This document shows positions 45,872 through 63,074 of a stretch of 64,000 nucleotides of DNA, piece by piece. Each line of letters starts with the position of its first letter. Position 1 is the stretch's first letter. Location: NCBI GenBank assembly GCA_009995545.1, contig JAACPI010000001.1, positions 115,698-179,697 on the forward strand, written 5' to 3'. Origin of the DNA: a bacterium (GTDB taxonomy: Bacteria > Patescibacteriota > WWE3 > 2-01-FULL-39-13 > JAACPI01). The position numbers and the translations under genes are program-made. Below the pieces are notes generated by a model that did no database searches, was not told the origin of the DNA, and worked only from the letters and a program-made list of their open reading frames with translations.

Positions 45872-47713
45872 ATGACAACGAGTAAAGACATAGCTGAAAT
45901 ACTATTTGACCAAAATAAACTGGATAAAGACCAGTTAAACGCGATTAGAATAGAAAGTGTTAATACAGGTAAAAGTGTAGAAAATATTTTGCAGGAGCGT
46001 AATTTGGTAACCAGTGATGACTTGATAAAAGCTAAAAGCTTCCTGAACGGTTTTGAATACTTTGATCCTAGTCTTAGTACAATACCCAATGAGATTTTAG
46101 ACTTAGTTTCTGAATCTATTGCTAAAAAGAGTCTTTTAATCCCCTTTGATAATAAGAATGGTGTTTTAAGTTTGGCCATGGTGGACCCTTTAGACCTTCC
46201 CACTATAGAATTAATTGAAAGAAGAAGTTCGTTGAGAGTTAAGCCTTTTATGGCATCCTCAGATAGTGTTCAAAAAGCGATTGCATCCCAGTACGGAAAA
46301 AGTATCGGAAAAGATGTTTCTGAAGCCTTAGGTGCCGAGGATGATTCTGCAACTAAACTTGAAGAAAACTTAAAAGACGTTGGCGACGCTGATAAAATAG
46401 TACAGGATTCCTCCGTAGCAAGGGTTGTAAGTATTATTTTGGAGTACGCTGTTAAGGTGGGTGCTTCGGATGTTCATATAGAACCTGGAGAAACATCTAC
46501 ACGTGTCAGGTATAGAGTTGACGGAATTTTACAAGAAAAGCTTTCTAAAATACCTAGAGAAAGTCATGATTCTTTGGTTGCTAGAATTAAAATTTTAGCA
46601 AATTTAAAGATTGACGAAAAAAGAAAACCACAAGACGGTAGGTTTAAAATTGAAATGGCTGGAGAAAAAGTGGATTTGCGAATTTCTATTATCCCCACAG
46701 TCAATGGCGAAAAAGTTGTTATTAGGCTATTAAAAGACCAGGGTAATGTAGTAAAACTTAAAGACTTGGGTCTTAGAGGTGCGGCTCTTAGAAACTTTGA
46801 TAGCAGTCTTTTAAAACCTAACGGAATAATTTTAGTTACTGGGCCAACTGGGTCAGGTAAAACTTTGACGTTGGCAACAGCCCTCAGAAAACTTAATTCA
46901 GTACGTGTAAATATTATGACCTTAGAAGATCCTGTTGAAATTAGAGTACCTGGAATAAATCAAATCCAAATAAACCCTGACGCTGGTTTGACTTTTGCCT
47001 CAGGTCTTAGGTCATTTTTAAGACAAGATCCTAACGTAATAATGGTGGGAGAAATTCGAGATAGTGAAACAGCTAACTTAGCTGTGCAAGCTGCCTTAAC
47101 GGGTCACTTAGTTTTAGCAACTTTACATACGAATTCTGCCGCAGGTTCTATACCTCGGCTTTTAGATATGAAGGTTGAAAACTTTTTGCTTTCCTCCACT
47201 ATTAATACAGTTTTAGCTCAAAGGCTTGTGCGTAATCTTTGCCCCTATTGTAAAGTTAGGTACGATGCCCCCGAGGGTACGGTTAAAGATATACAAGAGG
47301 TTTTGGGTAAGTTTTATTCCACCGAACTTATAAAAATCAATGCAAGTGTTCCCCTGCCACAAGAAAAGACTTCAACTGCTCAAGAACAGGAATCAAAGGC
47401 GTTCGATGAGAAAATTAGTGAGCTCAATCTAGAGAATGCGGATACAAAATCTACAGAAAATAAAATAAATTTGTATAGGGGCGAGGGCTGTGATAGGTGT
47501 AATAAAGTTGGTTACCTGGGTCGTGTCGGTATTTACGAGGTTTTAAACGTAACTGATAAAATTTCCTCAATGATTGCAGGAGATATTACTACCCAAGATT
47601 TGGAAAAAGAGGCTATAGCAGGTGGGATGATGACTTTAAAACAAGATGGATTTATAAAAGCCTTAGAGGGTATCACTAGTCTAGAAGAGGTTCTAAGAGT
47701 GGCTAGTGAGTAG
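45872..47713 (+). CDS. pilB: Type IV pilus assembly ATPase PilB (GspE family)
   Basis: N-terminal GSPII_E_N domain, Walker A 'GPTGSGKTLTLA', and a tetracysteine motif 'CPYCK…CDRCN'. Confidence 0.9.
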   Translation: MTTSKDIAEILFDQNKLDKDQLNAIRIESVNTGKSVENILQERNLVTSDDLIKAKSFLNGFEYFDPSLSTIPNEILDLVSESIAKKSLLIPFDNKNGVLSLAMVDPLDLPTIELIERRSSLRVKPFMASSDSVQKAIASQYGKSIGKDVSEALGAEDDSATKLEENLKDVGDADKIVQDSSVARVVSIILEYAVKVGASDVHIEPGETSTRVRYRVDGILQEKLSKIPRESHDSLVARIKILANLKIDEKRKPQDGRFKIEMAGEKVDLRISIIPTVNGEKVVIRLLKDQGNVVKLKDLGLRGAALRNFDSSLLKPNGIILVTGPTGSGKTLTLATALRKLNSVRVNIMTLEDPVEIRVPGINQIQINPDAGLTFASGLRSFLRQDPNVIMVGEIRDSETANLAVQAALTGHLVLATLHTNSAAGSIPRLLDMKVENFLLSSTINTVLAQRLVRNLCPYCKVRYDAPEGTVKDIQEVLGKFYSTELIKINASVPLPQEKTSTAQEQESKAFDEKISELNLENADTKSTENKINLYRGEGCDRCNKVGYLGRVGIYEVLNVTDKISSMIAGDITTQDLEKEAIAGGMMTLKQDGFIKALEGITSLEEVLRVASE

Positions 47714-47790
47714 TTTTATTACGTTGAACTTAGAAAGTCATTCAAAGAGAGATTAAATAGTATATAATTTAAACATAAATTTAACTGCCC

Positions 47791-48861
47791 ATGGAAATAA
47801 ATCTTAAAGAACTTCTTCAAAATATCGTTGATCGTAATTCTTCTGACTTGCATTTAACAGTTGGTTTGCCCCCCATGATGAGGATAGACCGAGCCTTACA
47901 GCCGGTCCCAGGGTTTGCTAGTTTAACTAATGCAGACGTTGAAAGTTTAGTTTATCCTATATTAAATGACATCCAGACTAACCAATTAAAAACAGAGCGT
48001 GAATTGGATTTTAGTTTTTCTCATGGAGAAAAAGCTAGGTTTAGAGGTAACGCCTTTCATCAAAAAGGGTTTTTATCTGCCGCGTATAGAATGATCCCTT
48101 ACACAGTCCCTACTTTGGACCAACTAAATCTTCCATCCAAAGTTGCTGAATTTTGTAAATTACCCCGCGGGTTTGTTTTGGTTACTGGAGCTACAAGCCA
48201 GGGTAAGTCTACAACTTTGGCCTCCATGATTGATCACATAAATACATATCAAGCTAAGCACATAATTACAATCGAGGATCCAATTGAATATGTTTTTAAA
48301 AACAATAAAAGTATTATTCAACAAAGAGAACTTTTTCAAGACACTATGTCTTGGGCTAGAGCCCTAAAGTCAGTTTTAAGAGAAGACCCTGATGTTGTTT
48401 TGGTTGGTGAAATGCGTGATTACGAAACAATTAGTAATACTGTAACAATAGCTGAAACAGGCCATTTGGTCTTTGCCACTTTACACACAAACTCAGCCGC
48501 CCAGTCTGTAAATCGTTTAATAGACGTTTTTCCAGATATTCAGCAAGCCCAGGTTAGAACTCAACTTGCGGACTGTTTACAGGCCATTTTGTCGCAAAGG
48601 TTAGTTCCTGCTGCTGGGGGTGGCATGGTACCCGCTGTAGAAGTTTTAATTGCTAATAGTGCAGTTCGGAACACTATTAGAGAGGGTAAAACCCATATGC
48701 TAGATAATATTATTAATACCAACTTAGACTCTGGAATGATAAGTTTAGAAAGATCCCTTGCCGATTTAGTTAACACTGGTAAAGTAACTTTAGATACAGC
48801 CCTAGGTCAAACTTTAAAACCAGACGAACTAAAAAGATTAGTTAGAAATACTACTAGATAA
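47791..48861 (+). CDS. pilT: Type IV pilus retraction ATPase PilT
   Basis: 'VLVTGATSQGKSTTLASMIDHIN', 'VGEMRD', 'ATLHTNSAAQSVNRLIDVF'. Confidence 0.9.
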   Translation: MEINLKELLQNIVDRNSSDLHLTVGLPPMMRIDRALQPVPGFASLTNADVESLVYPILNDIQTNQLKTERELDFSFSHGEKARFRGNAFHQKGFLSAAYRMIPYTVPTLDQLNLPSKVAEFCKLPRGFVLVTGATSQGKSTTLASMIDHINTYQAKHIITIEDPIEYVFKNNKSIIQQRELFQDTMSWARALKSVLREDPDVVLVGEMRDYETISNTVTIAETGHLVFATLHTNSAAQSVNRLIDVFPDIQQAQVRTQLADCLQAILSQRLVPAAGGGMVPAVEVLIANSAVRNTIREGKTHMLDNIINTNLDSGMISLERSLADLVNTGKVTLDTALGQTLKPDELKRLVRNTTR

Positions 48862-48868: not shown

Positions 48869-50074
48869 ATGCCTAAATACTCTTACAAAGCAAAGAACGG
48901 AACTGGACAAGATGTTGGTGGTGTAGTTGAGGCTGACTCTCAAAATATTGCAGTTTCCCTTTTAAAAGATCGGGGTTACATAGTTTACTCTTTACGACCC
49001 TATAAAAAAGAACTAACTGTGGAGTCCCTTCTATCCTTTAGAGGAGTTTCGGATACCGATAAAGTAAATTTTACCCAAAGTTTAGCCAGTATGACCAAGG
49101 CAGGATTGCCTTTAGCCAGTGCCCTAGAAATACTGACAGACCAGTCTAAAAACCCTAAAATGCGTGAGGTAGTACAAACGGCTCTTACTGATGTTGAGGC
49201 GGGTATGCCTTTATCTCAGTCATTAGCCAAATACCCGGACGTGTTTCAAGAAAATATAGTTTCATTAATTCAAGCCGGGGAGGCTTCCGGAAAAATCGCA
49301 GAGGTTTTGGAACGTCTTTCTTATACTTTAGAAAAACGTAGGGAGTTTACCGCTAAGGTTAAGGGAGCAATGATTTACCCTGTTATTATAATGATTGCAA
49401 TGAGTGCAGTTTTTTTGGTAATTGTAGTTTTTGTTATTCCAAAACTTGTTGATATGTACTCTAGTTTTGGAGTCGAGTTACCCTGGGCCACAAAAGCAAT
49501 GATATGGTTTTCCAACTTTATTAAAACAAAATGGTATTTAGTTTTGGCAATTATAGCGGGGTCGGTATACGGTTTTAAAACCTATGCTAAAACTACCAGT
49601 GGAGCACATAATTTAGGAAGGATGACCTTAAAAATACCTGTTTTCGGTTCAATTATGATTAAGCGTGATTTAACAGAGTTTACCAGATCGCTCTCCTTAC
49701 TTGTTTCAAGTGGTGTTGCTATTATTGATGCCTTATCTATATCTAGAGATTCTGTAGGCAATATTTTATTTAAAGAGGATATTTCAAGGTTTGTGGATGC
49801 TGTAAAAAGCGGAGGGTCTCTTTCGGATGCTATTAAGAAAAGTAGCAACTTTCCTCCAATTGTTTCTAAACTTATTAGAGTTGGTGAGGAGACCGGTACT
49901 ACGGATGATAGCTTAACTAATATTAGTAACTATTATGAAAAAGAAGTAGACACTTTAGTTAAAAACCTTTCAACTGCACTAGAACCCATGATTATGGTGG
50001 TTTTAGGGGTAATGGTTGGTGGTTTAATTGTTTCGGTAATTACCCCTATCTACAAATTAATGAGTCAATTCTAG
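48869..50074 (+). CDS. pilC: Type IV pilus platform protein PilC (GspF family)
   Basis: Duplicated GspF domains with three TM helices; 401 aa. Confidence 0.9.
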   Translation: MPKYSYKAKNGTGQDVGGVVEADSQNIAVSLLKDRGYIVYSLRPYKKELTVESLLSFRGVSDTDKVNFTQSLASMTKAGLPLASALEILTDQSKNPKMREVVQTALTDVEAGMPLSQSLAKYPDVFQENIVSLIQAGEASGKIAEVLERLSYTLEKRREFTAKVKGAMIYPVIIMIAMSAVFLVIVVFVIPKLVDMYSSFGVELPWATKAMIWFSNFIKTKWYLVLAIIAGSVYGFKTYAKTTSGAHNLGRMTLKIPVFGSIMIKRDLTEFTRSLSLLVSSGVAIIDALSISRDSVGNILFKEDISRFVDAVKSGGSLSDAIKKSSNFPPIVSKLIRVGEETGTTDDSLTNISNYYEKEVDTLVKNLSTALEPMIMVVLGVMVGGLIVSVITPIYKLMSQF

Positions 50075-50104
50075 TTATAATATGACTACAAGGAGGTGGT
50101 ATTT

Positions 50105-50611
50105 ATGAATAACAAAGCAAAAGCTTTTACTCTTATTGAACTTTTAGTTGTTTTAGCTATTGTTACTGTACTAGCCTTAGTATTCACTGTGGCCCTTAAT
50201 CCTTTTAAGAGGATTCAAGAATCTAGAGATAGTAAAAGACAAGCCGATTTACAGAGCGTTAGATCTGCTTTAGACATAGCTTTAACTGACGGAACTATAA
50301 CTTTAACTGGAACTGAGCTATCCCCCACTACTGGAAACTCTAAAACTGATACACGTGTTGCAGATGGTACCGGTTGGGTTAAATACACATTAATTGCCGA
50401 GAGTGGTTTAGCCGAACAAATTTCTATATTGCCTGAGGACCCACTTGGTAATAGTGCACCTTGTAACGGTTACGAATTTTCTTCTGATGGAACTTACTAC
50501 GAACTAAAAACTTGTTTTGAGACCACTAAGTATCAAGGATATTACACTACAGATGGTGGGAATAACGCAGATCGATGGGAACTCGGTAGCAAACCTGGTT
50601 TAACATTGTAA
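50105..50611 (+). CDS. Type IV pilin (likely major pilin); prepilin with Ala at -1
   Basis: 'MNNKAKA|FTLIELLVVLAIV' class-III signal with Glu at +5. Followed by a strong terminator; located between pilC and pilD. Confidence 0.75.
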   Translation: MNNKAKAFTLIELLVVLAIVTVLALVFTVALNPFKRIQESRDSKRQADLQSVRSALDIALTDGTITLTGTELSPTTGNSKTDTRVADGTGWVKYTLIAESGLAEQISILPEDPLGNSAPCNGYEFSSDGTYYELKTCFETTKYQGYYTTDGGNNADRWELGSKPGLTL

Positions 50612-50624: not shown

Positions 50625-50660
50625 GTTCCGGGGGCCTTTCGTTCCCGGAACTTTAAGTTT
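50625..50660 (+). terminator. Rho-independent terminator after the major pilin gene
   Basis: GTTCCGGG-(11-nt loop)-CCCGGAAC, an 8-bp GC-rich stem, followed by TTTAAGTTTT. Confidence 0.55.
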
Positions 50661-50782: not shown

Positions 50783-51673
50783 ATGCTTTATTTGTTACCT
50801 GCTTTTATATTTGGTACTGCACTGGGGTCATTTATAAATATGGCGGTTTATCGTTTAAATAAAAATCAGGGCTTTGGTGGTAGGTCATACTGCGATTACT
50901 GTAAAAAGACACTGAGTACAACGGCCCTAATCCCATTTTTTTCCTATTTTTTACTAAAAGGTAAGTCTAATTGTTGCAATAAAAAACTTTCTAAAGAATG
51001 TGTGTTTGTGGAGTTTATGAGTGGTATTTTTATATTTGTTATATCTTTGTATTTTTTAGGTTACCTAAACAGTTTTGGTGTGGTCCCCTTTTATTCTTTT
51101 AATAAGTCTATTTTAATAGGTTATTTTTTGTTTTATTCAAGTATTTTTGTAATTTTAGCAACTATATTTATTTACGATTTAAAATTTATGGTGGTTCCGA
51201 TGTTTTTTGTATACTGGGGATATGCTCTTGTGGCTGCCTTTAAGATTGTTGAATACTTTTTGTACAGAACTTATCTTGTTAATTCTCTGTCGTCGACAAC
51301 CCTGGGAAAATATATCTTACAAACAGACTATTTAAATAACAGATTAAATTTTTTTATTCAGGATAACATGTGGAGTTTATTAGTAGCCTCCGGTATTGCC
51401 TTATTCTTTATTTTTTTGGTATTTATTACTAAAGGTAAAGGAATGGGTGTTGGTGATATTTTTGTAGCTCCTTTATTATCGTTCTTACTCCCATACCCCA
51501 ATGCTGTTTTATACGTATTTTTATCGTTTATTATCGGTGGGATTTTTGGGTCTTTTTTGCTTTTATTTACAAAAGCAGGTAGAAAAACAGCTGTTCCATT
51601 TGTGCCTTTTTTAATTATTGGGTATCTATTTGCACTAATTTTTGGAGATGCTATTATTAGTTTATTAGTGTAA
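50783..51673 (+). CDS. pilD: Prepilin peptidase PilD (A24 family)
   Basis: N-terminal zinc motif 'CDYCKK…CCNKK', polytopic membrane domain, 'DIFVAPLLSF…GGIFG'. Confidence 0.85.
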   Translation: MLYLLPAFIFGTALGSFINMAVYRLNKNQGFGGRSYCDYCKKTLSTTALIPFFSYFLLKGKSNCCNKKLSKECVFVEFMSGIFIFVISLYFLGYLNSFGVVPFYSFNKSILIGYFLFYSSIFVILATIFIYDLKFMVVPMFFVYWGYALVAAFKIVEYFLYRTYLVNSLSSTTLGKYILQTDYLNNRLNFFIQDNMWSLLVASGIALFFIFLVFITKGKGMGVGDIFVAPLLSFLLPYPNAVLYVFLSFIIGGIFGSFLLLFTKAGRKTAVPFVPFLIIGYLFALIFGDAIISLLV

Positions 51674-51703: not shown

Positions 51704-52102
51704 ATGTTTAAATCAAAATCCCAAGGATTCACACTTATTGAACTTTTAATTGTTATTGCTATTTTAGGTATGCTTATGGTAGTTGTTTTAGTTTTAATAA
51801 ACCCCGCCAAAGTATTAGACAAATCTAGAACAAAAACGGCAGCTACAGTTGCTGCTAAGATCTGTACGGCTGTTCAGGTTTGCCAGGTTAACGCCGCTGA
51901 TGGAATCTGTAATGCTGCCGGTCTTACGGCTGCAACGCCAGCTAATGTACCCAATGGTATAACTTCTATGGTGGCTGCAGACAATCTTATAACAGTAAAA
52001 ACACCACAGTCTACAGGTATCAAAAATTGTACTGTTACATGTGTTCCTAACGTTGGTGAAATAGTATTCCTTGCAGATGCTACAAGTGCTTGTACTCAGT
52101 AA
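51704..52102 (+). CDS. Prepilin-type (pseudo)pilin, Cys-rich
   Basis: 'MFKSKSQG|FTLIELLIVIAILGML'. Confidence 0.75.
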   Translation: MFKSKSQGFTLIELLIVIAILGMLMVVVLVLINPAKVLDKSRTKTAATVAAKICTAVQVCQVNAADGICNAAGLTAATPANVPNGITSMVAADNLITVKTPQSTGIKNCTVTCVPNVGEIVFLADATSACTQ

Positions 52103-52107
52103 TTTTA

Positions 52108-52494
52108 ATGAAAAAAAGCGCTTTTACACTAATTGAATTGTTGATAGCCTTTACAATTTTAGGTCTTTTAACCAGTACGATAATACTTCTTATAAAACCT
52201 CAAGAGATGAGAAATAGAGCACAAGATGCGGTTAGAAAACAAGATATTAGTGTAATCGCCGGATCCTTAGAAAGATACTACGCAGACAATAATAAATACC
52301 CTGCTAGCTTACCTGTGTCACCAAATTCCTTTGCAGCAAATAGTATTACTTATCTTAAGGTTATGCCTAAAGATCCAGACGGTGCTGTTGGTTATGTTTA
52401 TTCCCAAACTACCAACCAGGATTTTAGTATCTGTACCACCTTAGAAGTACCTGGTAGTGAAACTAATCCTTTTTGTATAAAGAACGCTTTTTAA
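52108..52494 (+). CDS. Prepilin-type minor pilin
   Basis: 'MKKSA|FTLIELLIAFTILGLL'; start trimmed from 52090. Confidence 0.7.
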   Translation: MKKSAFTLIELLIAFTILGLLTSTIILLIKPQEMRNRAQDAVRKQDISVIAGSLERYYADNNKYPASLPVSPNSFAANSITYLKVMPKDPDGAVGYVYSQTTNQDFSICTTLEVPGSETNPFCIKNAF

Positions 52495-52505: not shown

Positions 52506-52988
52506 ATGTTTAAGTCTAAATATTTTGCCTTTACCCTTTTAGAACTTTTATTTGTAATTGCCCTGCTTAGTATTTTAAGCGGAGTAACTTATTTAATAAT
52601 CAATCCAAAAAAACAATTAGCAAAATCTAGAGACGCTCAACGGCTTGCGGATATCGCCACACTAGTTACTGCTATTCAGGAATATAATTCAGAACATGGT
52701 ACCTTTCCTGACGATGCAGAGGTTACTCGAGTTAGTAATCAACTCGCAGTAGGAGACAACTTATATTTATCTACGGGTAGTTGGATAAACGTTAATCTTT
52801 CTGAATTTTTGCCTAAAATTGTGATTGATCCCTTAAATACAGGGCAATATGTTTATAGATACCAGCACAATAATATTGGTTACGAGGTAGATACTACGTT
52901 CGAAAATTATAGTACTAAGCAAATAGAAGACGGGGGTAATAACGCAAATAAGTTTGAACTTGGCACAGACTTAACTATATTGGATTAG
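52506..52988 (+). CDS. Prepilin-type minor pilin
   Basis: 'MFKSKYFA|FTLLELLFVIALLSIL'; start trimmed from 52473. Confidence 0.7.
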   Translation: MFKSKYFAFTLLELLFVIALLSILSGVTYLIINPKKQLAKSRDAQRLADIATLVTAIQEYNSEHGTFPDDAEVTRVSNQLAVGDNLYLSTGSWINVNLSEFLPKIVIDPLNTGQYVYRYQHNNIGYEVDTTFENYSTKQIEDGGNNANKFELGTDLTILD

Positions 52989-53641: not shown

Positions 53642-53642
53642 T

Positions 53643-55529: not shown

Positions 55530-56159
55530 ATGAAATATATAAAAAACAAAAAGATATATGTTTTTATACCTGTTTCTATGGGTGTGTTATTTATTGTACT
55601 TGGATACTTATTTTTTGACTCTTATTTTTTAAAACAAAAGAAAGTCTCTCCACAAAATCCCTCCTTGGAGAATTCCAAAGAATACTCTAATTATAGTGAA
55701 GAATCTTTGTCTGTTTATGACAAGGTTATTGAACAATCTTTAACAGACTATTTTAATAAGAACTCAACAGATTCCCCTGTATCTTACTCTTCTAGGTCTC
55801 TTCCTCTTGAATACTTGCAAGATTTACCAAAAAAAGCCCGCTACAGTATACAAGGCACTGACTATGTTAGACATTTGGCCTACCTAAAGCAGGTGGTTAA
55901 AGAAGGTCAGCTTTATAAGTTTGATTTAGTGGGTGGGTATGTTGCGGATGTAAACTATAGCGACAAAGTAAAACTTCTAGATGCGGACTACGGTTTTGAC
56001 TCAGATAAAAATCTTGTCAGAAACGAGTTTTTTCCTGTCGATACTAAAAATATAAATCTTCTAAAAGTGGGTGCCCCTGTTTATCTAGTTTTTACAGAGG
56101 ATCAAGTAGATTCATTAACCTTATTCCCTACAGAAGTTGTAATACTAAACTATGAATAG
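55530..56159 (+). CDS. Membrane-anchored hypothetical protein in the pilus locus
   Basis: Single N-terminal TM helix ('IYVFIPVSMGVLFIVLGYLFF'); 209 aa. Confidence 0.45.
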   Translation: MKYIKNKKIYVFIPVSMGVLFIVLGYLFFDSYFLKQKKVSPQNPSLENSKEYSNYSEESLSVYDKVIEQSLTDYFNKNSTDSPVSYSSRSLPLEYLQDLPKKARYSIQGTDYVRHLAYLKQVVKEGQLYKFDLVGGYVADVNYSDKVKLLDADYGFDSDKNLVRNEFFPVDTKNINLLKVGAPVYLVFTEDQVDSLTLFPTEVVILNYE

Positions 56160-59100
56160 AACCTTATTTTTAACATTATTTATTTTGCCGTTGGTTTTTT
56201 TATCTGTGAAAAATAAACCGGTTAACGCCGGAATTTCGTGTGGTTGGGAGTGTAGCGGTACTAGTTATAGTTGTAAAGATGCTAACGGTACAACGGAAAC
56301 TAGGGATACTACTTGTTCTGATGGTTCTCCTGGAACCTGTGTGGATACTTGTACCGGCAGTATAAGTGGTGCGGAGAAAGAATGCGGTGGTAAGAAGGTA
56401 AGCGTGTCCTGCAGTTCTGCAACTAAGTCTTCTACAGGATGTTGTGGTGGGGGTGGTATTACTACCTCAAACCCTCCGGAAGGTTTTTTAGATATAGCTA
56501 GTTGTACTAACTTAAAACTTCGTACAGTTGGTTGGGCGAAAGACAGAGATGTGCCTGATAAAGTCAAGGTTGATATCTACCTTGACGGTACTGATCCCTC
56601 TAATAAAGTAGCTACTCTAACCTCAGATCAGTTTAGACAGAGTCTTCATGATGGGGGTTACGGAGACGTTCAATTTAGTGGCGATAATCTTAAAACTCTT
56701 ACAGTTGGTACCCACCAACTTCGTGCTAAAGCAAAAGACCCAAACGGTACTGAAGATAACTGGCTTTTTTGTGGCGCAAATAACCCCAATTGTAAGGGCG
56801 GTACTGACTTAGGCGGGTGGGTAGTTGGTGGTTACTTGGAATTTACATGCGACTCCCCTATAGATACGGAGGCTCCTGCATGTGGAACTATTACGGTTAC
56901 CCCTACACCTCCGGTTAGTTCTGGTAGTGTAACAATAACTGCTACTGCTACAGACAACGTGGCTGTTACCCGTGGCGGTCTTTATGTATTAGAGCCAAAT
57001 GGTAATAATGCTGAGTTATACTCTAACAATAATCCTAGCTCTGGTAGTTTAAGTAAGGTTTGGACAACCCCCTCAACTGACGGCAGCTACCATATTCAAG
57101 CTAATTGGTATGATGCCGCTGGAAACTTTAAACAATGCCCTTACGATTTTGTAATAGACAAAACTCCCCCGGTGTGTGGCCCAATAACTTTTACACCAGA
57201 TGTAAATAATTCTAAAAAAGTAATAATTAAAGGAAGAGCAAGTGATAGTGGCTCCGGTCTTGTACGGGGAGGTCTATACGTAGGAACTTCTCCAGGAAGT
57301 GGTAGTGCTAACTACCCTATTATTCCCAATACCTATACTTTTGGACCTCAGGCTAATGGGGAAATTTCCGAAGAGTGGGATACAACATCCTTGCCCCAAG
57401 GAAAGTACGCAGTTGCATTTAATTGGTGGGATGCCGCCGATAATGGTGATTCTGCAACCTACGCGGGTAATCACCCAGGAAACTTTGTTCAATGTAGATC
57501 AGAATATAATGTAGCTCCCCCAGTTCCGGACTGTGTTGGTTTAAAGGTTTACGATGCAGATTTTAACCCTGTAGCATCTAACAAGCTAATCTCAGGTGAG
57601 GAGTATTACTCACTCGTCACCGCAGATCCCGGGCCTTACGCCAAGCAAGTAGATACTGTTGGGGTGAGCGTACTAGATTCTGCTCTGTCCTTTGTGCCAA
57701 ATAATTACAACCCTAATGTTAACGATGTAAATAAACAAGTATGTACTACTAAAAATATTGGTTATTATACCTCTAAATTTGGGTATAACCTTACTAAGGT
57801 AGAATCTAGATATGTAGGCCCTATAAAATTTGATAATCCTGGAACTTACTCTCTATACGGTAGGGTTTGGAACGACAGTATTTCTGAGTGTAAGTCCGCT
57901 TGTGTCGACGGGCCTCCCAGGTATTTATGCAATCAGGGCCAGAGTGTTTGTAAATCTGAGGTTACGGTTACAGATCTGCCTACCCCTAATGATTTAAGCT
58001 GTGAGAGTATAACCTCAAACCCTCTTGGACCGGTTTTAGCTACCGACTCAACCTCTTCTTTGGAATTAGTAGTAAATAACTTCACTAATCAAGTTGGTTT
58101 TTATAATTGGAGTGCTCAAGCGGGATCGATTTCTACTCTACAAGATCCTAACTGTGCACCGGGAAGCCCTACCTGCAATCTTCCGGTTGGAAATAGAGTT
58201 TTAAGTGGTGCTGTGTATAGTACTCCTACAAATATAAAAGGTTCATCTGTTATTGATACTATAACTTTTAGTGCCACTGCTAATTCTAAAACCGTAAACT
58301 GTACAAAACAATTTAAAGTATGCTCCCCTATAAATGTGGTGTTATCGTTTGATCCGCCTGAGGTGAATTTTGTTAAGGGGGAGAGTTTTGAAATTTTTGT
58401 TAATTCAAGCATTAAAGATTTTAGTAATGTAAACACGTATCCAGATTTTGATTATGAACTCCTCCTAAATTGCCCCACGGGAGTTAGCTGTGTTTTTGAA
58501 AACGGTACCACAAGTAACGTAGTAAAATTTTCCATATTAAATGGCAATACATTTAGTTCTAAAGTAATTGTTAATTCGGCTAATGCGGCTAGTGGACTAT
58601 TGACAGTGGTTGGTAATTCTTTAGATAATAGTCTTTGTCTGGAAAATCCCAATAATACTGTCAGCGCTCCTTTAGAAGTTTCCGGTACCTTTGATATTGA
58701 CTTGAAGGTTGAAAAAGTTGATACAAGTAATGCCCTGAGTCCTTCAAGTGAATATTGTAAAAACGGGGTTAGCCGAAATACTTATAGTGACAATTTAGAG
58801 CTGAAAGTATCTAAATACACCTTGTCTGGAATCTTTAGGGATAGTACCTCCGCTGGGCTGAAAAATGGCAGTAAGTTTCCAAACCTTGTCTTTGGTTTTG
58901 ACTACCAGATCTCTGCTTCGCTAGCTGGAAATACTGGATTAGAGGTAAAATGTATTAAAAGTGACTACGAAAATGTCTCGGGTAATCAGATTTCTCTTTT
59001 AAATAAAAATCTTGATACCACTAAAACTTCAACACCTTTGTTAGTAGTTGTAGGTCCCCCTACGCCAGATTCTTGGTTTCAGGCACTAGGTGGTTCTGTT

Positions 59101-59739
59101 TTTTCTTTTGGGGATATAAAATCTGCGGTTCCGGATAACAAAGGAAAGTTTTTGGACAGCTATTCGAATGTTTCCTCTGGGGTGCTAATTGCTGGAAACG
59201 ATATAAATCCCCCTGTGGATACCTCTAAACAGTCGGACAGGGTAGTTAAAAGTTATCCGAGTGTATCTAAACCCAGCTTAAAAAACTTGGCAAAATTATT
59301 TACGGCAAATTCCAATTCTTCAAATCTTTCTGACATAGACTTTGATGCTACAAAAACTAAGTTTTATTTTATTGACGGTGATTTAGACTTTGATAATAAC
59401 GATGAATTTGAGGCTAAAAAGGGCTATGTACCGGTTGTATTTGTAAACGGTGATGTGAATATCTCTGGAGAGGTTAAACGTTTAGATTCTTATATATTTG
59501 CAAAAGGTAAGATAACGATTAACTCCAATATTAAAGACCCCTCGGATAGTGAGGTTAATATTATAGTTAACGGGGCTCTAATAGCCAAAAACATAGAGTT
59601 TGGAAAACTTCCCTTTTTACTTTCCACAGACCCTTCAGAAAAAATTCAGTTTACACCTAATATATTTCTGGGTGCCACTTCAGATATTTTAGGATTTCCT
59701 GCTCACGAGGTTAAGATATATGTAAAAAACATTGATTAA
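56152..59739 (+). CDS. Giant (1195 aa) secreted Cys-rich protein with internal about 100-aa repeat domains and a beta-helix-like C-terminus; candidate pilus-associated adhesin
   Basis: Signal peptide 'MNRTLFLTLFILPLVFLSVKNKPVNA'. Cys-rich N-terminus. Duplicated 'VTRGGLYV…WYDAAGN…PPVCGPITFTP' and 'LVRGGLYV…WWDAADN…PPVPDC' modules. Embedded between the minor pilins and pilMNO. Confidence 0.6.
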   Translation: MNRTLFLTLFILPLVFLSVKNKPVNAGISCGWECSGTSYSCKDANGTTETRDTTCSDGSPGTCVDTCTGSISGAEKECGGKKVSVSCSSATKSSTGCCGGGGITTSNPPEGFLDIASCTNLKLRTVGWAKDRDVPDKVKVDIYLDGTDPSNKVATLTSDQFRQSLHDGGYGDVQFSGDNLKTLTVGTHQLRAKAKDPNGTEDNWLFCGANNPNCKGGTDLGGWVVGGYLEFTCDSPIDTEAPACGTITVTPTPPVSSGSVTITATATDNVAVTRGGLYVLEPNGNNAELYSNNNPSSGSLSKVWTTPSTDGSYHIQANWYDAAGNFKQCPYDFVIDKTPPVCGPITFTPDVNNSKKVIIKGRASDSGSGLVRGGLYVGTSPGSGSANYPIIPNTYTFGPQANGEISEEWDTTSLPQGKYAVAFNWWDAADNGDSATYAGNHPGNFVQCRSEYNVAPPVPDCVGLKVYDADFNPVASNKLISGEEYYSLVTADPGPYAKQVDTVGVSVLDSALSFVPNNYNPNVNDVNKQVCTTKNIGYYTSKFGYNLTKVESRYVGPIKFDNPGTYSLYGRVWNDSISECKSACVDGPPRYLCNQGQSVCKSEVTVTDLPTPNDLSCESITSNPLGPVLATDSTSSLELVVNNFTNQVGFYNWSAQAGSISTLQDPNCAPGSPTCNLPVGNRVLSGAVYSTPTNIKGSSVIDTITFSATANSKTVNCTKQFKVCSPINVVLSFDPPEVNFVKGESFEIFVNSSIKDFSNVNTYPDFDYELLLNCPTGVSCVFENGTTSNVVKFSILNGNTFSSKVIVNSANAASGLLTVVGNSLDNSLCLENPNNTVSAPLEVSGTFDIDLKVEKVDTSNALSPSSEYCKNGVSRNTYSDNLELKVSKYTLSGIFRDSTSAGLKNGSKFPNLVFGFDYQISASLAGNTGLEVKCIKSDYENVSGNQISLLNKNLDTTKTSTPLLVVVGPPTPDSWFQALGGSVFSFGDIKSAVPDNKGKFLDSYSNVSSGVLIAGNDINPPVDTSKQSDRVVKSYPSVSKPSLKNLAKLFTANSNSSNLSDIDFDATKTKFYFIDGDLDFDNNDEFEAKKGYVPVVFVNGDVNISGEVKRLDSYIFAKGKITINSNIKDPSDSEVNIIVNGALIAKNIEFGKLPFLLSTDPSEKIQFTPNIFLGATSDILGFPAHEVKIYVKNID

Positions 59740-60168
59740 ATGACCTTTAAGCAAAAAATATTAAGAATCGTTAAACCCACTTTAAAATTTGTAATGTTAG
59801 TGCTTTTTATATCTTTTTTGGCCCTTCCGGTTATCCAGAAATACAAGGTTAGTAATTCTGGTGTATTTTTGCAAAATAACTTTGACGTTTTAAATTTATC
59901 CAAAGATGCAAAGGTTAATCAAATATATGAGGTATCCCTGTTACAAGATTCCGTGGAACCAGAATCTATCTATTTATATTCGGGAGATGTTATTAGATTT
60001 ATTAATAAACAAGACTCAGAAGTGACTATACTTATAAATGGTAATCAGGCTGTAGTCAATCCTTCTAAAGACTATTTTAGTATCTTTGATACTCCCGGAG
60101 TCTTTAAAGTAGGAGTTAATTATAAACGTATTCCAAAAACTTTTAGTGTGGAGGTGCATGTTAAATAG
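59740..60168 (+). CDS. Small membrane-anchored hypothetical protein, translationally coupled to the giant protein
   Basis: ATG immediately follows the upstream TAA. N-terminal TM helix. Confidence 0.45.
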   Translation: MTFKQKILRIVKPTLKFVMLVLFISFLALPVIQKYKVSNSGVFLQNNFDVLNLSKDAKVNQIYEVSLLQDSVEPESIYLYSGDVIRFINKQDSEVTILINGNQAVVNPSKDYFSIFDTPGVFKVGVNYKRIPKTFSVEVHVK

Positions 60169-60408: not shown

Positions 60409-61449
60409 ATGAACTTACTTGGTATAGATCTAGGATCTCAATATTTAAAATCGGTCGAAATTCAGAGAAATTCTGATGGTACAACAGAGCTGATTTCCTT
60501 ATCTAAGGTAGACATATCTGGCTTAGATATGTTTTCTGGTAAAGTCTTCGATCCTAAACCCATAACCGACTTTTTACGAGATTACGTGATGCAAAATAAA
60601 TATATTGGTAAATCTGTAAATTTGGGACTACCCTCTTCCTTAACTTATATCAGAATAGATTCTTTCCCTAAGCTTACTGGTAAGGAGTTAGAAAATGCCG
60701 TTAACTTAGAGTTACAAAATCAGACAGTTGTACCTTTAGCCGAGTCTAGTGTTAGTTTTCAAGTTTTGCCTAATTCTGGTAATACAGAAAAGACCGATGT
60801 TCTTTCCGTTATTGCACCAAAAACACTTACAAATAATCTTTTAGCTGTTATAAAAGACTCAGGTCTTAATCTGCAATCCATCGAACCCAATGTTTTAGGT
60901 ACTATAAGGGGTGTTTTAAACGAGGAGGCCGTTAACCCCGCCACAGTAGTTTTAGATATTGGGTATAAGTTCTCCGATATTTCGGTTTTTGCAGACAATG
61001 CTCTTAGATTTACTAGAAATGTTCCTACAGGAATGTCCTCTTTAATTAAAACTGTAGCTCAGGGTTTAAATTTGGAAGTAATTCAAGCCGAAGAATATAT
61101 TAAAACTTATGGACTCTCGGCGGAAAAGCTTAACGGTAAGGTAAGAGACGCAGCTGCTTCTGTAATAACCCTTCTTTTAGACGAAGTTAAAAGGTCAAAC
61201 ACCTTTTATGAAACAAGAGGCGGTAGCTCAAAAATTAAAAGACTTGTATTGGCAGGTGGCGGTGCCTATATTCCTGGATTAGTTGTACATGCTGCTAATT
61301 ATCTTGGCTTGGAGGTAGAAATAGCAAACCCTTGGGACCAAATAAGAAATTTAGGTGCCTACTCTAGTAACTTGGCCGATTTAGAGCCCCAAGCTCCTTT
61401 GTACACAACTTCTGTTGGTCTATCCCTTAAAAAATTGTTGGATAGTTAA
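60409..61449 (+). CDS. pilM: Type IV pilus assembly protein PilM (actin-like ATPase fold)
   Basis: 'MNLLGIDLGSQYLK' N-terminus and an actin-like fold; 346 aa. Confidence 0.85.
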   Translation: MNLLGIDLGSQYLKSVEIQRNSDGTTELISLSKVDISGLDMFSGKVFDPKPITDFLRDYVMQNKYIGKSVNLGLPSSLTYIRIDSFPKLTGKELENAVNLELQNQTVVPLAESSVSFQVLPNSGNTEKTDVLSVIAPKTLTNNLLAVIKDSGLNLQSIEPNVLGTIRGVLNEEAVNPATVVLDIGYKFSDISVFADNALRFTRNVPTGMSSLIKTVAQGLNLEVIQAEEYIKTYGLSAEKLNGKVRDAAASVITLLLDEVKRSNTFYETRGGSSKIKRLVLAGGGAYIPGLVVHAANYLGLEVEIANPWDQIRNLGAYSSNLADLEPQAPLYTTSVGLSLKKLLDS

Positions 61450-61488
61450 TACTTTCAAAAACAGTATTAACAATATAGAATATTAGTA

Positions 61489-62061
61489 ATGCCAGACAAT
61501 ATTAATCTAATTCCTTCTGAAGTAGTAAAAGAAAGGTCTCTAAAGAGGACTTACCTAAGAGTATTGTACGGGTCTTTGATTTTCTTAGTAATGATCTTGT
61601 TAGTTTTAGGAGTGGTGGTTTTTTTGCAGTCTAAATCTCAATCAGACTTAAATTTAACAAAATCAAGGATTAGTTCAAAGCAGGATGAGATTGAGAGTTT
61701 AAAGGATGTCGAGCGTAAAGCTTCCTCTTTAACTGCAAAGCTTAACTACATTGATCAACTACTGAAAAACAAAATTTATTTCTCTAAGATAATGAACGAG
61801 TTGGATTTAAAATCCAAGCCCGGTATAACTATCACACAGGCCAATGTAACTGATGCTTACACAGTTGAAATTACAGGTCTTTCTACTAGTACCACCACTT
61901 TACAGACATACATTAATGATTTGGTCAAAGAGCCCGATAACTTATTTTCCGATGCTAGAATCTTAGAAGTAAGTATAAAAGAAGGCTCTGGTCTTGCATC
62001 ATTTAAGGTTTCGGTTAAGGTGTCTAAAGAAGATTTAATAAAAACTACTGCATTAAAGTAA
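61489..62061 (+). CDS. pilN: Type IV pilus assembly protein PilN
   Basis: 'INLIPSEV' motif, a single TM helix and a coiled coil. Confidence 0.7.
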   Translation: MPDNINLIPSEVVKERSLKRTYLRVLYGSLIFLVMILLVLGVVVFLQSKSQSDLNLTKSRISSKQDEIESLKDVERKASSLTAKLNYIDQLLKNKIYFSKIMNELDLKSKPGITITQANVTDAYTVEITGLSTSTTTLQTYINDLVKEPDNLFSDARILEVSIKEGSGLASFKVSVKVSKEDLIKTTALK

Positions 62062-62063
62062 AA

Positions 62064-63074
62064 ATGGAAACAGGAATAGATAAAGAACAAATCGTAAAGG
62101 CTAAATACCAAGTAAAGGAGTATGCACAGTTGATACTATCTTTTTTGGTTTTTGTTGGGGCTATTTTATTATTTGTATTTGTTATAAAACCAACATTTGC
62201 AAAATATCAAAATAATAAACTAGAGATTACCAATCAACTAAGTCAAGAAATGCTCTTAGACAAAAAGTTGGCTGAATTGCAAAAGGCTAAAGAGCTTCAA
62301 TCTAGTATCGAAAGTAATATTTTATTAGCTAATCAAGCAGTCCCCGACGATTCAGATATACCTACAGTTATGGCAATGATTCAAGACGTGTCTTCTAAAT
62401 CGGGTGTGAAGGTATCTGCTTTTAGTTATATTGGTTTAGGTAACTCTGTAGTTGTAGTAGAAACCCCCACTCCCGCTGTTCCTCAAGATGGATCCTCAGG
62501 TGAGTCCCCTGTTAATAATGGTCTTGAATCTCCTGTGGATTCAGAATACTTCGATGCCTTTAACCTGAGTATTTCTGTTCTTGGAAAATTTGACAATCTT
62601 AAGGATTTTACAAAAAAAATCGAGAGTTCCCGAAGGGTTTTAGATATGAGTGGTTTTTCTTATAGTATTGAAAAAGAAAACGAACAAATAACTAGTGATT
62701 TTTATACTCTTAAAGTTCAATTGACTTCTTATTATAGGTCCTTTGCAAATGTGGCTCCCCTAGTAGCTCTAGATCAATATTCTGGAACTATCTCGGACCT
62801 AAATGAAATGGTTTACTACGAGGTAGATTTATCTAACACCACAATAGGCAGAGATGACCCATTTAAAACTAATAATGCTAACCCTAGCTCTGGTTCAACG
62901 TCAGGCTCTACTTTTTTTGGAGGTTCAGGTAGCGGAGGTACTACTACAAATTCTAGTGCTCCAAATCAAGAGAATCCCGGTGTAAATGTAGTAGAACCTG
63001 TTCCTGACCAAGGAGCTCAGACCGTAGACGTTCAGCAGATGCTTAAGGATATGGTTGCCAAAGAGGGTTTATAA
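62064..63074 (+). CDS. pilO: PilO-like pilus assembly protein with Gly/Ser/Thr-rich C-terminal tail
   Basis: N-terminal TM helix, a coiled coil and a PilO-like domain. The 'GSTSGSTFFGGSGSGGTTT' tail is unusual. Confidence 0.55.
   Translation: METGIDKEQIVKAKYQVKEYAQLILSFLVFVGAILLFVFVIKPTFAKYQNNKLEITNQLSQEMLLDKKLAELQKAKELQSSIESNILLANQAVPDDSDIPTVMAMIQDVSSKSGVKVSAFSYIGLGNSVVVVETPTPAVPQDGSSGESPVNNGLESPVDSEYFDAFNLSISVLGKFDNLKDFTKKIESSRRVLDMSGFSYSIEKENEQITSDFYTLKVQLTSYYRSFANVAPLVALDQYSGTISDLNEMVYYEVDLSNTTIGRDDPFKTNNANPSSGSTSGSTFFGGSGSGGTTTNSSAPNQENPGVNVVEPVPDQGAQTVDVQQMLKDMVAKEGL

What the first reader, a model, noticed from the sequence alone, without database searches (positions are those of the whole stretch)
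45872..63074. Complete, compact type IV pilus locus (pilB-pilT-pilC-pilin-pilD-seven pilin-like genes-giant protein-pilMNO) with no secretin
All core components are present in one 17-kb co-directional block: assembly and retraction ATPases, platform, peptidase, eight prepilin-like genes and the PilM/N/O alignment complex. There is no PilQ secretin or PilP. This is the architecture expected for a monoderm or thin-envelope organism that uses pili for twitching, DNA uptake or host attachment. Several prepilins have Ala rather than Gly at the -1 cleavage position (50105, 52108, 52506, 53643, 54708), which is unusual for PilD substrates. The major pilin is singled out by its own strong terminator.
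Basis: partly seen in the sequence, partly recalled or inferred. Interest (0 to 1): 0.5.

Follow-up and report, generated by a model that had tools for sequence, protein, structure and literature searches.

The report
Secretin-less type IV pilus locus, CPR bacterium
This is a real and complete type IV pilus gene cluster of an uncultivated ultra-small (CPR/Patescibacteria) bacterium, but the same secretin-less layout is found in dozens of related genomes and has been described before, so it is an ordinary example whose one little-studied part is a large secreted protein that probably sits at the pilus tip.

Summary
Window 45872-63074 is one co-directional block: pilB, pilT, pilC, major pilin, pilD, seven further pilin-like genes, a 209-aa membrane protein, a 1195-aa secreted protein, a 142-aa membrane protein, and pilM, pilN, pilO. 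No secretin, PilP or com gene was found in the window or in 10 kb downstream. The strong terminator after the major pilin is real. Five of the eight pilin-like proteins have Ala at -1.

The locus is not unusual. A PilM profile retrieved 80 loci from WWE3, Microgenomates, CPR3 and other Patescibacteria. Their layout matches this one, including convergent trmD after pilO in 57 of 77 loci. Published CPR genome papers already report single-locus type IV pili without pilQ.

Ala at -1 is rare among relatives (13 of 333 prepilins). It is nonetheless a documented PilD cleavage residue.

The new detail concerns the giant protein. It has a Sec signal peptide, a Cys-rich N-terminus and Ig-like repeats. 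Its C-terminal domain of about 220 aa has no Pfam or PDB sequence match, yet it matches 4,439 protein clusters. This domain often lies beside the PilX-like gene. A medium-confidence model resembles the beta-solenoid of the pilus-tip protein ComZ. I read the giant protein as a PilY1-like tip adhesin; that is inference.

Verdict: new member of a known kind, low interest.

The parts
45872..47713 (+). pilB, assembly ATPase (613 aa)
   Evidence: Pfam T2SSE 417.6 bits plus MshEN. Best PDB sequence match is Geobacter T4aP PilB 5zfr, E 2.2e-122, ahead of GspE. Walker A GPTGSGKT at residue 324. The tetracysteine motif is CPYC457...CDRC540, an unusually long 83-residue spacing.
47791..48861 (+). pilT, retraction ATPase (356 aa)
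   Evidence: Pfam T2SSE. Full-length match to Aquifex PilT 2ewv, E 4.3e-102. Walker A GATSQGKS and the PilT signature AVRNTIRE are present.
48869..50074 (+). pilC, inner-membrane platform (401 aa)
   Evidence: Two T2SSF domains, 211 bits.
50090..50096 (+). Shine-Dalgarno AAGGAGG of the major pilin gene
   Evidence: Read directly from the sequence. It is the only canonical SD among the 18 genes of the block.
50105..50611 (+). Major pilin candidate (168 aa); leader MNNKAKA|FTLIEL, Ala at -1
   Evidence: N_methyl 32 bits and TIGR02532 25.4 bits. The pilC-pilin-pilD position is conserved in related loci. It has its own SD and terminator. GenBank NCT55361.1.
50625..50651 (+). Intrinsic terminator after the major pilin gene
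   Evidence: 11-bp stem with 7 GC pairs, a 5-nt loop and a T tract. Strongest terminator-like site in 45-64 kb.
50783..51673 (+). pilD, prepilin peptidase / N-methylase (296 aa)
   Evidence: A24_N_bact 71.2 bits. Peptidase_A24 25.2 bits, just below the 26.5 cut-off. Catalytic YD132L and GVGD225 and the CxxC...CC motif are present.
51704..52102 (+). Pilin-like 1 (132 aa, Gly at -1, six Cys)
   Evidence: N_methyl 37.7 bits. Tandemly duplicated in other assemblies of the same population.
52108..52494 (+). Pilin-like 2 (128 aa, Ala at -1), GspG-like
   Evidence: N_methyl 27 bits, T2SSG 21.8 bits, TIGR01710 41.7 bits, which is below its cut-off. The ortholog in L088 keeps Ala.
52506..52988 (+). Pilin-like 3 (160 aa, Ala at -1)
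   Evidence: N_methyl 25.2 bits and TIGR02532 20.8 bits. The ortholog in L088 keeps Ala.
53132..53641 (+). Minor pilin 4 (169 aa, Gly at -1), GspH/FimU-like
   Evidence: N_methyl 32.4 bits. Best NCBIfam match is GspH, 32.8 bits, below its cut-off.
53643..54089 (+). Minor pilin 5 (148 aa), leader MFIKKYKA|QTLVE, non-canonical
   Evidence: No Pfam hit. Weak NCBIfam hits only. Motif read from the sequence. Conserved in L088 and in many related loci.
54086..54649 (+). Minor pilin 6 (187 aa, Gly at -1), GspJ/PilW-position
   Evidence: N_methyl 32.9 bits and TIGR02532 23.9 bits. Gene-caller start taken.
54708..55523 (+). PilX/GspK-like minor pilin (271 aa, no Glu5, Ala at -1)
   Evidence: No Pfam hit for the window protein itself. 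12 of 24 aligned family members hit PilX_N PF14341, best E 1.5e-5. The family is present in 59 of 80 related loci.
55530..56159 (+). 209-aa protein with an N-terminal membrane anchor; lineage-specific, role unknown
   Evidence: No Pfam or NCBIfam hit. Homologs only in the close relatives L088 and L089. Overlaps the giant gene by 8 nt.
56152..59739 (+). Giant secreted protein (1195 aa): Sec signal peptide, Cys-rich N-terminus, Ig-like repeats, conserved C-terminal domain (residues about 970-1195). Proposed pilus-tip adhesin.
59740..60168 (+). 142-aa protein with an N-terminal membrane anchor; role unknown
   Evidence: No family hit. Homologs in L008, L088 and L089 only.
60409..61449 (+). pilM (346 aa)
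   Evidence: PilM_2 100.9 bits over the full length. 52 homologs in the word-indexed search.
61489..62061 (+). pilN (190 aa)
   Evidence: PilN 18.5 bits, below the 22.8 cut-off. N-terminal INLIP motif followed by a single membrane helix. Homologs found in the same position in most related loci.
62064..63074 (+). pilO (336 aa) with a C-terminal Gly/Ser/Thr/Pro-rich extension of about 90 aa
   Evidence: PilO 33.3 bits. Median length in relatives is 250 aa. Only the closest relative, L008, is similarly long at 364 aa.

Best explanation
The block encodes a complete, retractile type IVa-like pilus machine of the monoderm, secretin-less kind. It belongs to an uncultivated Patescibacteria (CPR) bacterium.

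Proposed mechanism:
1. PilD removes the short leader from the eight pilin-like proteins, cutting after Gly or Ala.
2. PilM, PilN, PilO and PilC form the cytoplasmic-membrane platform.
3. PilB polymerises the major pilin (50105), the only gene of the block with a strong ribosome-binding site and its own terminator.
4. PilT depolymerises the fibre, giving retraction.
5. The last four pilin genes (53132, 53643, 54086 and the PilX-like 54708) form the priming or tip complex.
6. The 1195-aa Sec-secreted protein docks on that complex through its conserved C-terminal domain and terminal peptide. Its variable Cys-rich and Ig-like N-terminal part is exposed as the adhesin. In this it is a positional and functional analogue of PilY1, PilC or ComZ.

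The most likely use is attachment to, and movement on, a host cell or surface, possibly with DNA capture as well.

What is shown: the identity and integrity of the machine parts, the absence of a secretin nearby, and the conserved layout.

What is inferred: which pilin is the major one, the tip location of the giant protein, and the biological role.
For: Identity of the parts:
- Pfam and NCBIfam assignments.
- PilB and PilT match solved T4aP PilB and PilT best.
- Catalytic and signature motifs are intact.

No secretin or com genes were found in the window or in 10 kb downstream.

Conserved layout:
- The same gene order occurs in 80 PilM-anchored loci from WWE3, Microgenomates, CPR3 and other Patescibacteria.
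- No + strand ORF of 350 aa or more follows pilM in any of them, apart from one long PilO.

Major pilin: unique SD and unique strong terminator, in the conserved pilC-pilin-pilD position.

Tip complex: the last pilin belongs to a PilX_N-matching family.

Giant protein:
- Sec-type signal peptide.
- The C-terminal domain family has 43 members in 34 of 80 loci. All lie upstream of pilM, and 20 are immediately next to the PilX-like gene.
- The extreme C-terminus is conserved in register with the end of the protein: an aromatic residue at -6 in 93 of 101 members.

Literature:
- T4P are widespread in CPR and lack pilQ (PMC7143001).
- In the Saccharibacterium TM7x they mediate host binding and twitching (PMC11623550).
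- PilC/PilY1 anchor to PilK-type pilins through their last ~10 residues (PMC13533445).
Against: - There are no expression, proteomic or imaging data for this organism.
- Secretin absence is shown for about 74 kb only, not for the whole genome.
- PilN and the PilD peptidase domain score slightly below the Pfam cut-offs.
- The structural model of the giant protein's C-terminal domain is only medium confidence: mean pLDDT 64.6, core 80-92.
- Foldseek finds no significant match, best E 0.07. Beta-solenoids tend to match one another generically, and ice-binding proteins score as high as ComZ.
- Of four family members chosen without regard to context, only one lies beside a T4P locus. The other three are not obviously pilus-linked or sit on short contigs.
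- The giant protein has no PilY1/PilC Pfam domain.
- The small pilin 51704 has Gly at -1 and the same Gly/Ala/Ser/Thr fraction as 50105 (0.36). It is duplicated in some strains. It could be a second major subunit.
Confidence: 0.62

Rival explanations
1. The pilus is primarily a DNA-uptake (competence) pilus. The giant protein would be a tip-located DNA receptor like Thermus ComZ, feeding DNA to a ComEC channel encoded elsewhere. The DNA would serve as a nucleotide source for a bacterium with reduced biosynthesis.
For: - CPR type IV pili have been proposed to take up DNA (PMC7143001).
- A retraction ATPase is present, as DNA-uptake T4aP require.
Against: - No comEA, comEC, dprA or comF gene was found in the 64-kb window or in 10 kb downstream.
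- The similarity to ComZ is at fold level only, and ice-binding proteins match equally well.
- The ComZ DNA-binding lysines lie between its pilin and solenoid domains (PMC6561018). The giant protein has no pilin domain.
- The highly variable Cys-rich and Ig-like N-terminal part fits a specific surface ligand better than DNA.
- This reading is not exclusive of adhesion.
Confidence: 0.2
2. The giant protein, and the two small membrane proteins beside it, are not part of the pilus. They would be an independent cell-surface or S-layer-associated protein set that merely shares the operon.
For: - Sec signal peptide rather than a prepilin leader.
- No PilY1, PilC or pilin family hit.
- Three of four context-blind family members are not clearly in T4P loci.
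- The window lineage has lost the second paralog (613-616 aa) that relatives carry before pilM, so these proteins are dispensable for the core machine.
Against: - The gene lies between the minor pilins and pilMNO with overlapping or abutting reading frames.
- 43 family members occur in 34 of 80 PilM-anchored loci, always on the pilus strand. 20 are directly next to the PilX-like gene.
- The terminal peptide is conserved in register, like the PilC/PilY1 anchoring strand (PMC13533445).
- PilY1 itself carries a Sec signal. This last point is from my own knowledge of PilY1, not from a tool result.
Confidence: 0.3
3. The locus is a type II secretion-like pseudopilus or a Com(G)-type system, not a true surface pilus.
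For: - Several pilins score best, though below cut-off, against GspG, GspH or ComG models.
- GenBank names the major pilin 'type II secretion system protein'.
Against: - A bona fide PilT and PilM/N/O are present. ComG and T2SS loci lack these. That is from my own knowledge of those systems; the presence here is shown.
- No GspD, GspC, GspL or GspM was found.
- PilB matches T4aP PilB better than GspE.
- Homologous loci in the Saccharibacterium TM7x make visible pili (PMC11623550).
Confidence: 0.04

Closest known systems
Single-locus, pilQ-less type IV pilus clusters of CPR/Patescibacteria (for example Microgenomates Ch65, PMC7143001; T4P locus one of the Saccharibacterium Nanosynbacter lyticus TM7x, PMC11623550)
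   Same: The component set is the same: PilB, PilT, PilC, PilD, PilM/N/O, one major pilin and several minor pilins. There is no secretin. A large, non-canonical 'PilX'-type or tip protein is present. In 80 related loci the gene order is the same, down to convergent trmD after pilO.
   Different: - This lineage is only about 30-43% identical in PilM to any GTDB representative genome found with the PilM profile.
- It uses Ala at -1 in five of eight pilins, against 4% in relatives.
- Its large protein is 1195 aa with only two or three full-length homologs.
- It lacks the second 613-616 aa paralog found before pilM in its closest relatives.
- Its PilO carries an extra tail of about 90 aa.
Type IVa pilus of monoderm Firmicutes (Streptococcus sanguinis, Clostridia; PMC6916266, PMC3244431)
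   Same: A retractile T4aP with PilB, PilT, PilC, PilD and PilM/N/O and no secretin. Prepilins are cleaved after Gly or Ala. Bulky modular minor pilins or tip proteins act as adhesins.
   Different: The organism is phylogenetically remote. Here the adhesin candidate is a Sec-secreted non-pilin rather than a modular pilin. The minor-pilin set has the GspH/I/J/K-like order typical of diderm fimU-pilVWXY1 operons.
PilY1/PilC tip adhesins with the FimU-PilVWX minor-pilin complex of diderm T4aP (PMC7541494, PMC13533445)
   Same: A large, Sec-exported, non-pilin protein is encoded directly after the PilX-type minor pilin. The C-terminal module is conserved and the N-terminal part is variable. The extreme C-terminal peptide is conserved in register with the protein end.
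   Different: There is no PF05567 beta-propeller domain. The C-terminal domain is predicted to be a beta-solenoid instead. Docking to the minor pilins is untested.
ComZ of Thermus thermophilus (PDB 6qvi; PMC6561018) and tapirins of Caldicellulosiruptor (PDB 6n2b, 6n2c, 4wa0)
   Different: Sequence identity is only 15%, and there is no sequence-level match. ComZ has a pilin-like domain into which the solenoid is inserted, whereas the giant protein has a Sec signal and no pilin domain. Foldseek does not reach significance.

Membership tests
Type IVa pilus machinery, monoderm (secretin-less) form | PilB-type assembly ATPase with an N-terminal MshEN/GSPII domain | tested here: met
   T2SSE 417.6 bits plus MshEN 56.3 bits. 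Best PDB match is T4aP PilB 5zfr, E 2.2e-122.
Type IVa pilus machinery, monoderm (secretin-less) form | PilT retraction ATPase | tested here: met
   Full-length match to PilT 2ewv, E 4.3e-102. AVRNTIRE motif present.
Type IVa pilus machinery, monoderm (secretin-less) form | PilC platform and PilD prepilin peptidase | tested here: met
   Two T2SSF domains. A24_N_bact 71.2 bits. Peptidase_A24 25.2 bits, marginally under its cut-off, but both catalytic Asp are present.
Type IVa pilus machinery, monoderm (secretin-less) form | PilM/PilN/PilO alignment complex | tested here: met
   PilM_2 100.9 bits. PilO 33.3 bits. PilN 18.5 bits (below cut-off), with the INLIP motif and the conserved position.
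Type IVa pilus machinery, monoderm (secretin-less) form | Pilins with a class III signal peptide (short basic leader, G/A at -1, Glu5, hydrophobic helix) | tested here: met
   Six pilins pass N_methyl / TIGR02532. A seventh has A|QTLVE. The eighth is PilX-like without Glu5.
Diderm T4aP (Pseudomonas, Neisseria, Myxococcus type) | PilQ secretin with PilP (and a pilotin) | tested here: not met
   No Secretin or PilP family hit in the 40 ORFs of the window scanned outside the finding, which include every ORF of 290 aa or more, nor in 10 kb downstream. None follows pilO in 77 related loci. Absence from the whole genome was not testable.
Com(G) competence pilus | comGA-GG operon plus ComC, without PilT or PilMNO | tested here: not met
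   PilT and PilM/N/O are present. ComG NCBIfam models score far below their cut-offs.
Type II secretion system | GspD secretin, GspC/L/M and no retraction ATPase | tested here: not met
   None of these was found, and PilT is present.
Tad/Flp pilus | TadA/B/C, Flp pilins of about 60 aa, TadV | tested here: not met
   The ATPase has PilB architecture with MshEN. The platform is a single two-domain PilC. The pilins are 128-271 aa.
PilY1/PilC tip adhesin family | C-terminal PilY1/Neisseria_PilC beta-propeller domain (PF05567) | tested here: not met
   The only Pfam hits of the 1195-aa protein are Big_13 and Big_7. No PDB sequence match.
PilY1/PilC tip adhesin family | Terminal ~10-residue beta-strand that completes the PilK/PilX sheet (PMC13533445) | not testable with these tools
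   The terminal peptide is conserved in register (aromatic at -6 in 93 of 101, Pro at -1 in 83 of 101). No multimer prediction or binding assay was available.
ComZ-like / ice-binding-protein-like beta-solenoid (DUF3494 fold) | Triangular beta-solenoid fold | tested here: inconclusive
PilX/GspK-type capping minor pilin | PilX_N-type N-terminus without Glu5 | tested here: inconclusive
   The window protein 54708 has no Pfam hit of its own. 12 of 24 aligned homologs match PF14341, best E 1.5e-5. Glu5 is absent.

The most novel reading that the evidence does not exclude
The C-terminal domain of the giant protein (about 220 aa) has no Pfam family and no solved relative by sequence. It is found in at least 4,439 protein clusters. 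It may define a CPR-wide class of pilus-tip adhesins. In that reading, a conserved beta-solenoid plus a fixed terminal peptide plugs into the PilX-like minor pilin, as PilC/PilY1 plug into PilK. A hypervariable Cys-rich or Ig-like N-terminal part would then carry host or surface specificity. If so, these proteins would be the main determinants of which host an episymbiotic CPR bacterium can attach to.
Probability: 0.35. Interest if true: 0.55.

Novelty: new member of a known kind. Interest (0 to 1): 0.22.

Why it matters
Type IV pili are the best candidate organelle for host attachment, motility and DNA scavenging in the ultra-small, mostly uncultivated CPR bacteria. This locus adds one more clean example, from a lineage that recurs in many groundwater-type metagenomes. 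It does not change the picture.

The useful by-product concerns the large secreted proteins embedded in these loci. They share an uncharacterised C-terminal module with a conserved terminal peptide. That gives a concrete, testable handle on how CPR pili carry their adhesins, and on where host specificity may reside.

Tried and rejected
- A single-protein PilM scan of the GTDB genome contigs found nothing. It worked only with a profile.
- The AF2 model of the giant protein's C-terminal domain with a 10-sequence alignment was useless, at pLDDT 45. A 101-sequence alignment raised it to 64.6.
- The afdb50 fold library was unavailable.
- Profile and sequence searches of the PDB with the C-terminal domain, the whole giant protein and the PilX-like family gave no meaningful hit.
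- Pfam on six large proteins from related loci gave no common family.
- I tested whether the roughly 600-aa proteins directly upstream of pilM in Daviesbacteria-type loci belong to the same C-terminal family. hhalign gave only 25% probability. These proteins start with a PilX-like pilin N-terminus, so they are a different family.
- I looked in the 240-bp gap before pilM for a remnant of the 613-616 aa paralog that relatives carry there. None was found.
- Homolog searches for the 209-aa and 142-aa proteins beyond the closest relatives found nothing.
- I considered that contig ends inside the first minor pilin gene reflect hypervariable pilin cassettes. The cause turned out to be a tandem duplication of that gene.
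- T2SS, Com and Tad classifications were considered and rejected. See the membership tests.

Full report
**1. What is there**

ORF listing and family searches confirm a single co-directional block on the + strand from 45872 to 63074.
- It contains pilB (T2SSE plus MshEN), pilT, pilC (two T2SSF domains) and a 168-aa prepilin at 50105.
- Then come pilD and seven further pilin-like genes at 51704, 52108, 52506, 53132, 53643, 54086 and 54708.
- After these are a 209-aa membrane-anchored ORF, a 1195-aa ORF and a 142-aa membrane-anchored ORF.
- A 240-bp gap follows, and then pilM, pilN and pilO.
- PilB and PilT match solved T4aP PilB and PilT best: 5zfr at E 2.2e-122 and 2ewv at E 4.3e-102. GspE-type ATPases score behind them.
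- Signature motifs are intact: Walker A boxes; the PilT AVRNTIRE motif; the two PilD catalytic aspartates (YD132L and GVGD225); and the PilN INLIP motif.
- Two hits sit just under the Pfam cut-offs: the PilD peptidase domain (25.2 against 26.5 bits) and PilN (18.5 against 22.8 bits). Motifs and conserved position support both.

**2. The individual claims**

Pilins.
- Six pilins pass the N_methyl / TIGR02532 thresholds.
- 53643 has A|QTLVE and no family hit.
- 54708 lacks Glu5. It belongs to a family in which 12 of 24 members match PilX_N.
- The -1 residue is Ala in 50105, 52108, 52506, 53643 and 54708, exactly as stated.

Major pilin.
- The terminator at 50625-50651 (11-bp stem, 7 GC pairs) is the only strong one in the region.
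- 50105 is also the only one of the 18 genes with a canonical Shine-Dalgarno sequence (AAGGAGG, 50090-50096).
- Both features fit high expression of a major subunit.

Secretin and com genes.
- Outside the finding I scanned 40 ORFs of the window, including every ORF of 290 aa or more. None hit a Secretin, PilP or Competence family.
- The 10 kb beyond the window end holds only housekeeping genes: trmD, KH, rpsP, rnc, nusB, rpmF, rsmD, recG, a tRNA synthetase and a PBP.

**3. Whose locus it is**

- The sequence occurs at over 99.9% identity on many metagenome contigs from ENA, JGI and Logan, up to 275 kb long.
- It is in GenBank as an unclassified 'bacterium' with locus tags GW755_.
- The window has about 34% G+C and reads through with the standard code.
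- PilM homologs with names come from Gottesmanbacteria and Blackburnbacteria.
- A PilM profile retrieved relatives at 28-43% identity from WWE3, Daviesbacteria, Woesebacteria, CPR3 and other Patescibacteria. Several records carry automatic labels such as 'uncultured Gammaproteobacteria' that do not fit their content.
- The organism is therefore a divergent CPR bacterium.

**4. How common the architecture is**

I called ORFs in the 80 fetched loci and annotated them with the window proteins and a prepilin motif.
- The recurring order is pilB, pilT, pilC, pilin, pilD, then four to nine prepilins, then a PilX-like protein of 270-320 aa.
- Often one or two large secreted proteins follow, and then pilM, pilN and pilO.
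- In 57 of 77 loci, convergent trmD comes directly after pilO. No + strand ORF of 350 aa or more follows pilM except one long PilO.
- The literature says the same. [quoted passage not shown]
- In the Saccharibacterium TM7x, homologous loci build two pili that mediate host binding and twitching, with large non-canonical 'PilX' proteins as candidate tip adhesins (PMC11623550).
- The finding is thus a typical member of a described kind.

**5. Ala at -1**

- Among 333 prepilins in the related loci the -1 residue is Gly 319 times, Ala 13 times and Ser once. Five Ala out of eight is a real lineage peculiarity.
- The 59%-identity relative L088 keeps Ala in the orthologs of 52108, 52506 and 53643. It has Gly in the ortholog of 54708.
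- However, cleavage 'at a glycine or alanine' is the textbook description of PilD specificity (PMC3244431).
- I therefore treat this as a minor variant, not an anomaly.

**6. The giant protein**

General features.
- It begins with a Sec-type signal peptide (…VNA|G) and a Cys-rich stretch. It has 34 Cys in all. Its only Pfam hit is Big_13.
- Full-length homologs are few: 59% and 42% identity, both from short Logan contigs with the same neighbours.

The C-terminal domain.
- Residues about 970-1195 are a different matter. Iterated searches link them to the C-termini of 43 large proteins in 34 of the 80 loci.
- All 43 lie upstream of pilM on the pilus strand. Twenty are immediately next to the PilX-like gene.
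- An exhaustive profile search finds 4,439 cluster representatives, 2,329 of them at E up to 1e-10. In the 150 best listed, the domain almost always ends at the C-terminal end of proteins of 173-1985 aa.
- There is no Pfam family and no PDB sequence relative.
- Family members generally carry Sec signal peptides, and many have Cys-rich N-termini.
- The last residues are conserved in register with the carboxyl end. An aromatic residue sits at -6 in 93 of 101 members, and Pro at -1 in 83 of 101. The window protein ends …IYVKNID, with Tyr at -6.

Predicted fold.
- With a 101-sequence alignment AlphaFold gives a medium-confidence model: mean pLDDT 64.6, core 80-92.
- Foldseek lists the same folds but without significance.

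**7. Interpretation**

- The last four pilin genes stand in the order of a FimU/GspH-, PilV/GspI-, PilW/GspJ- and PilX/GspK-like set. The first three assignments rest only on weak sub-threshold hits and on position.
- A large Sec-exported protein right behind them is the arrangement of fimU-pilVWXY1 operons.
- Recent work shows that PilC/PilY1 adhesins are held on the tip because their last ~10 residues add a beta-strand to the PilK-type pilin (PMC13533445).
- The register-conserved terminal peptide, the adjacency to the PilX-like gene and the ComZ-like fold together make a PilY1-like tip adhesin the most economical reading.

This remains inference, with evidence against it:
- There is no PilY1 domain.
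- The model is of medium quality.
- Of four family members picked without regard to context, only one sits beside a T4P locus. The other three do not clearly do so.

The rival readings are given with their own probabilities: the protein as an unrelated surface protein, or the pilus as mainly serving DNA uptake with a ComZ-like receptor.

**8. Differences from the closest relatives**

- L088 and L008 carry a second, 613-616 aa member of the same family between the 142-aa gene and pilM. The window has only a 240-bp gap there, with no remnant.
- PilO is 336 aa against a median of 250 aa, because of a Gly/Ser/Thr/Pro-rich tail shared only with L008.
- The 209-aa and 142-aa membrane proteins are restricted to this small clade.

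**9. Verdict**

The system is a new member of a known kind. Interest is low. The modest upside lies in the uncharacterised, very widespread C-terminal module of the locus-encoded large proteins.

Noticed in passing
window 51704-52114; L092, L097, L093: The first pilin gene after pilD (132 aa, six Cys) is present as two tandem copies, about 99% identical, in other assemblies of the same population (ERZ22296397, ERZ17986940, JGI 3300025035). Several long contigs end at window 51808-51836. This is either copy-number variation between strains or a collapsed repeat in the window's assembly.
   Followed up: partly
window 45872-63074 (start regions of all 18 genes): Only the major pilin gene has a canonical Shine-Dalgarno sequence (AAGGAGG). 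The other 17 genes of the block have none within 25 nt upstream.
   Followed up: partly
window 63069-63713 (-) and L008-L087: Convergent trmD directly after pilO, followed by KH, rpsP, rnc and recG, is conserved in 57 of 77 CPR loci. The link between the pilus operon and a housekeeping cluster is unexpectedly stable.
   Followed up: partly
window 60169-60408; L088 10934-12775; L008 1985-3835: The closest relatives carry a 613-616 aa secreted paralog of the giant protein's family between the 142-aa gene and pilM. The window has only a 240-bp AT-rich gap there.
   Followed up: yes
window 47240-47490 (PilB residues 457-540): The two Cys pairs of the PilB zinc-binding motif (CPYC…CDRC) are 83 residues apart. 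The intervening segment is low-complexity and rich in Glu, Lys and Ser. The PDB PilB matches stop at residue about 467.
   Followed up: no
window 62800-63074 (PilO C-terminus): PilO has a Gly/Ser/Thr/Pro/Asn-rich tail of about 90 aa, absent from most relatives (median PilO 250 aa). It might reach into the cell wall or S-layer.
   Followed up: no
window 23148-29751 and 34346-36209: There is an 813-aa VirD4/TraG-like coupling-type ATPase (TraG-D_C, DUF87) among several ORFs with no family hit. A tyrosine recombinase (34346-35365) and an HTH_17 protein lie nearby. This may be an integrated mobile element or a type IV secretion remnant.
   Followed up: no
window 332-4443; L101 3888-9237: A cluster of a 7TM_transglut membrane protein with three ATP-grasp enzymes (ATPgrasp_ST and two RimK-like). 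A similar cluster (7TM_transglut, ATPgrasp_ST and RimK-like ATP-grasp enzymes) lies next to a member of the giant protein's family (P0073) on an unrelated contig.
   Followed up: no
window 17445-18437: Ribosomal protein S2 carries a C-terminal extension that matches the RNA polymerase alpha C-terminal domain (PF03118, E 3.7e-07).
   Followed up: no
window 38502-44943 (-): gyrB and gyrA are separated by a 445-aa ORF with no family hit and by an inorganic pyrophosphatase. The Pfam DNA_topoisoIV match of GyrA is split into two stretches, which suggests an insertion.
   Followed up: no
L028, L037, L040, L045, L062, L064 and others, about 8100-9970: Daviesbacteria-type loci have, directly upstream of pilM, a protein of about 590-625 aa. 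It starts with a PilX-like pilin N-terminus (…GQ|ILV…AEAG…). It is unrelated to the giant protein's C-terminal family (hhalign probability 25%). It may be a modular tip pilin in the manner of ComZ.
   Followed up: partly
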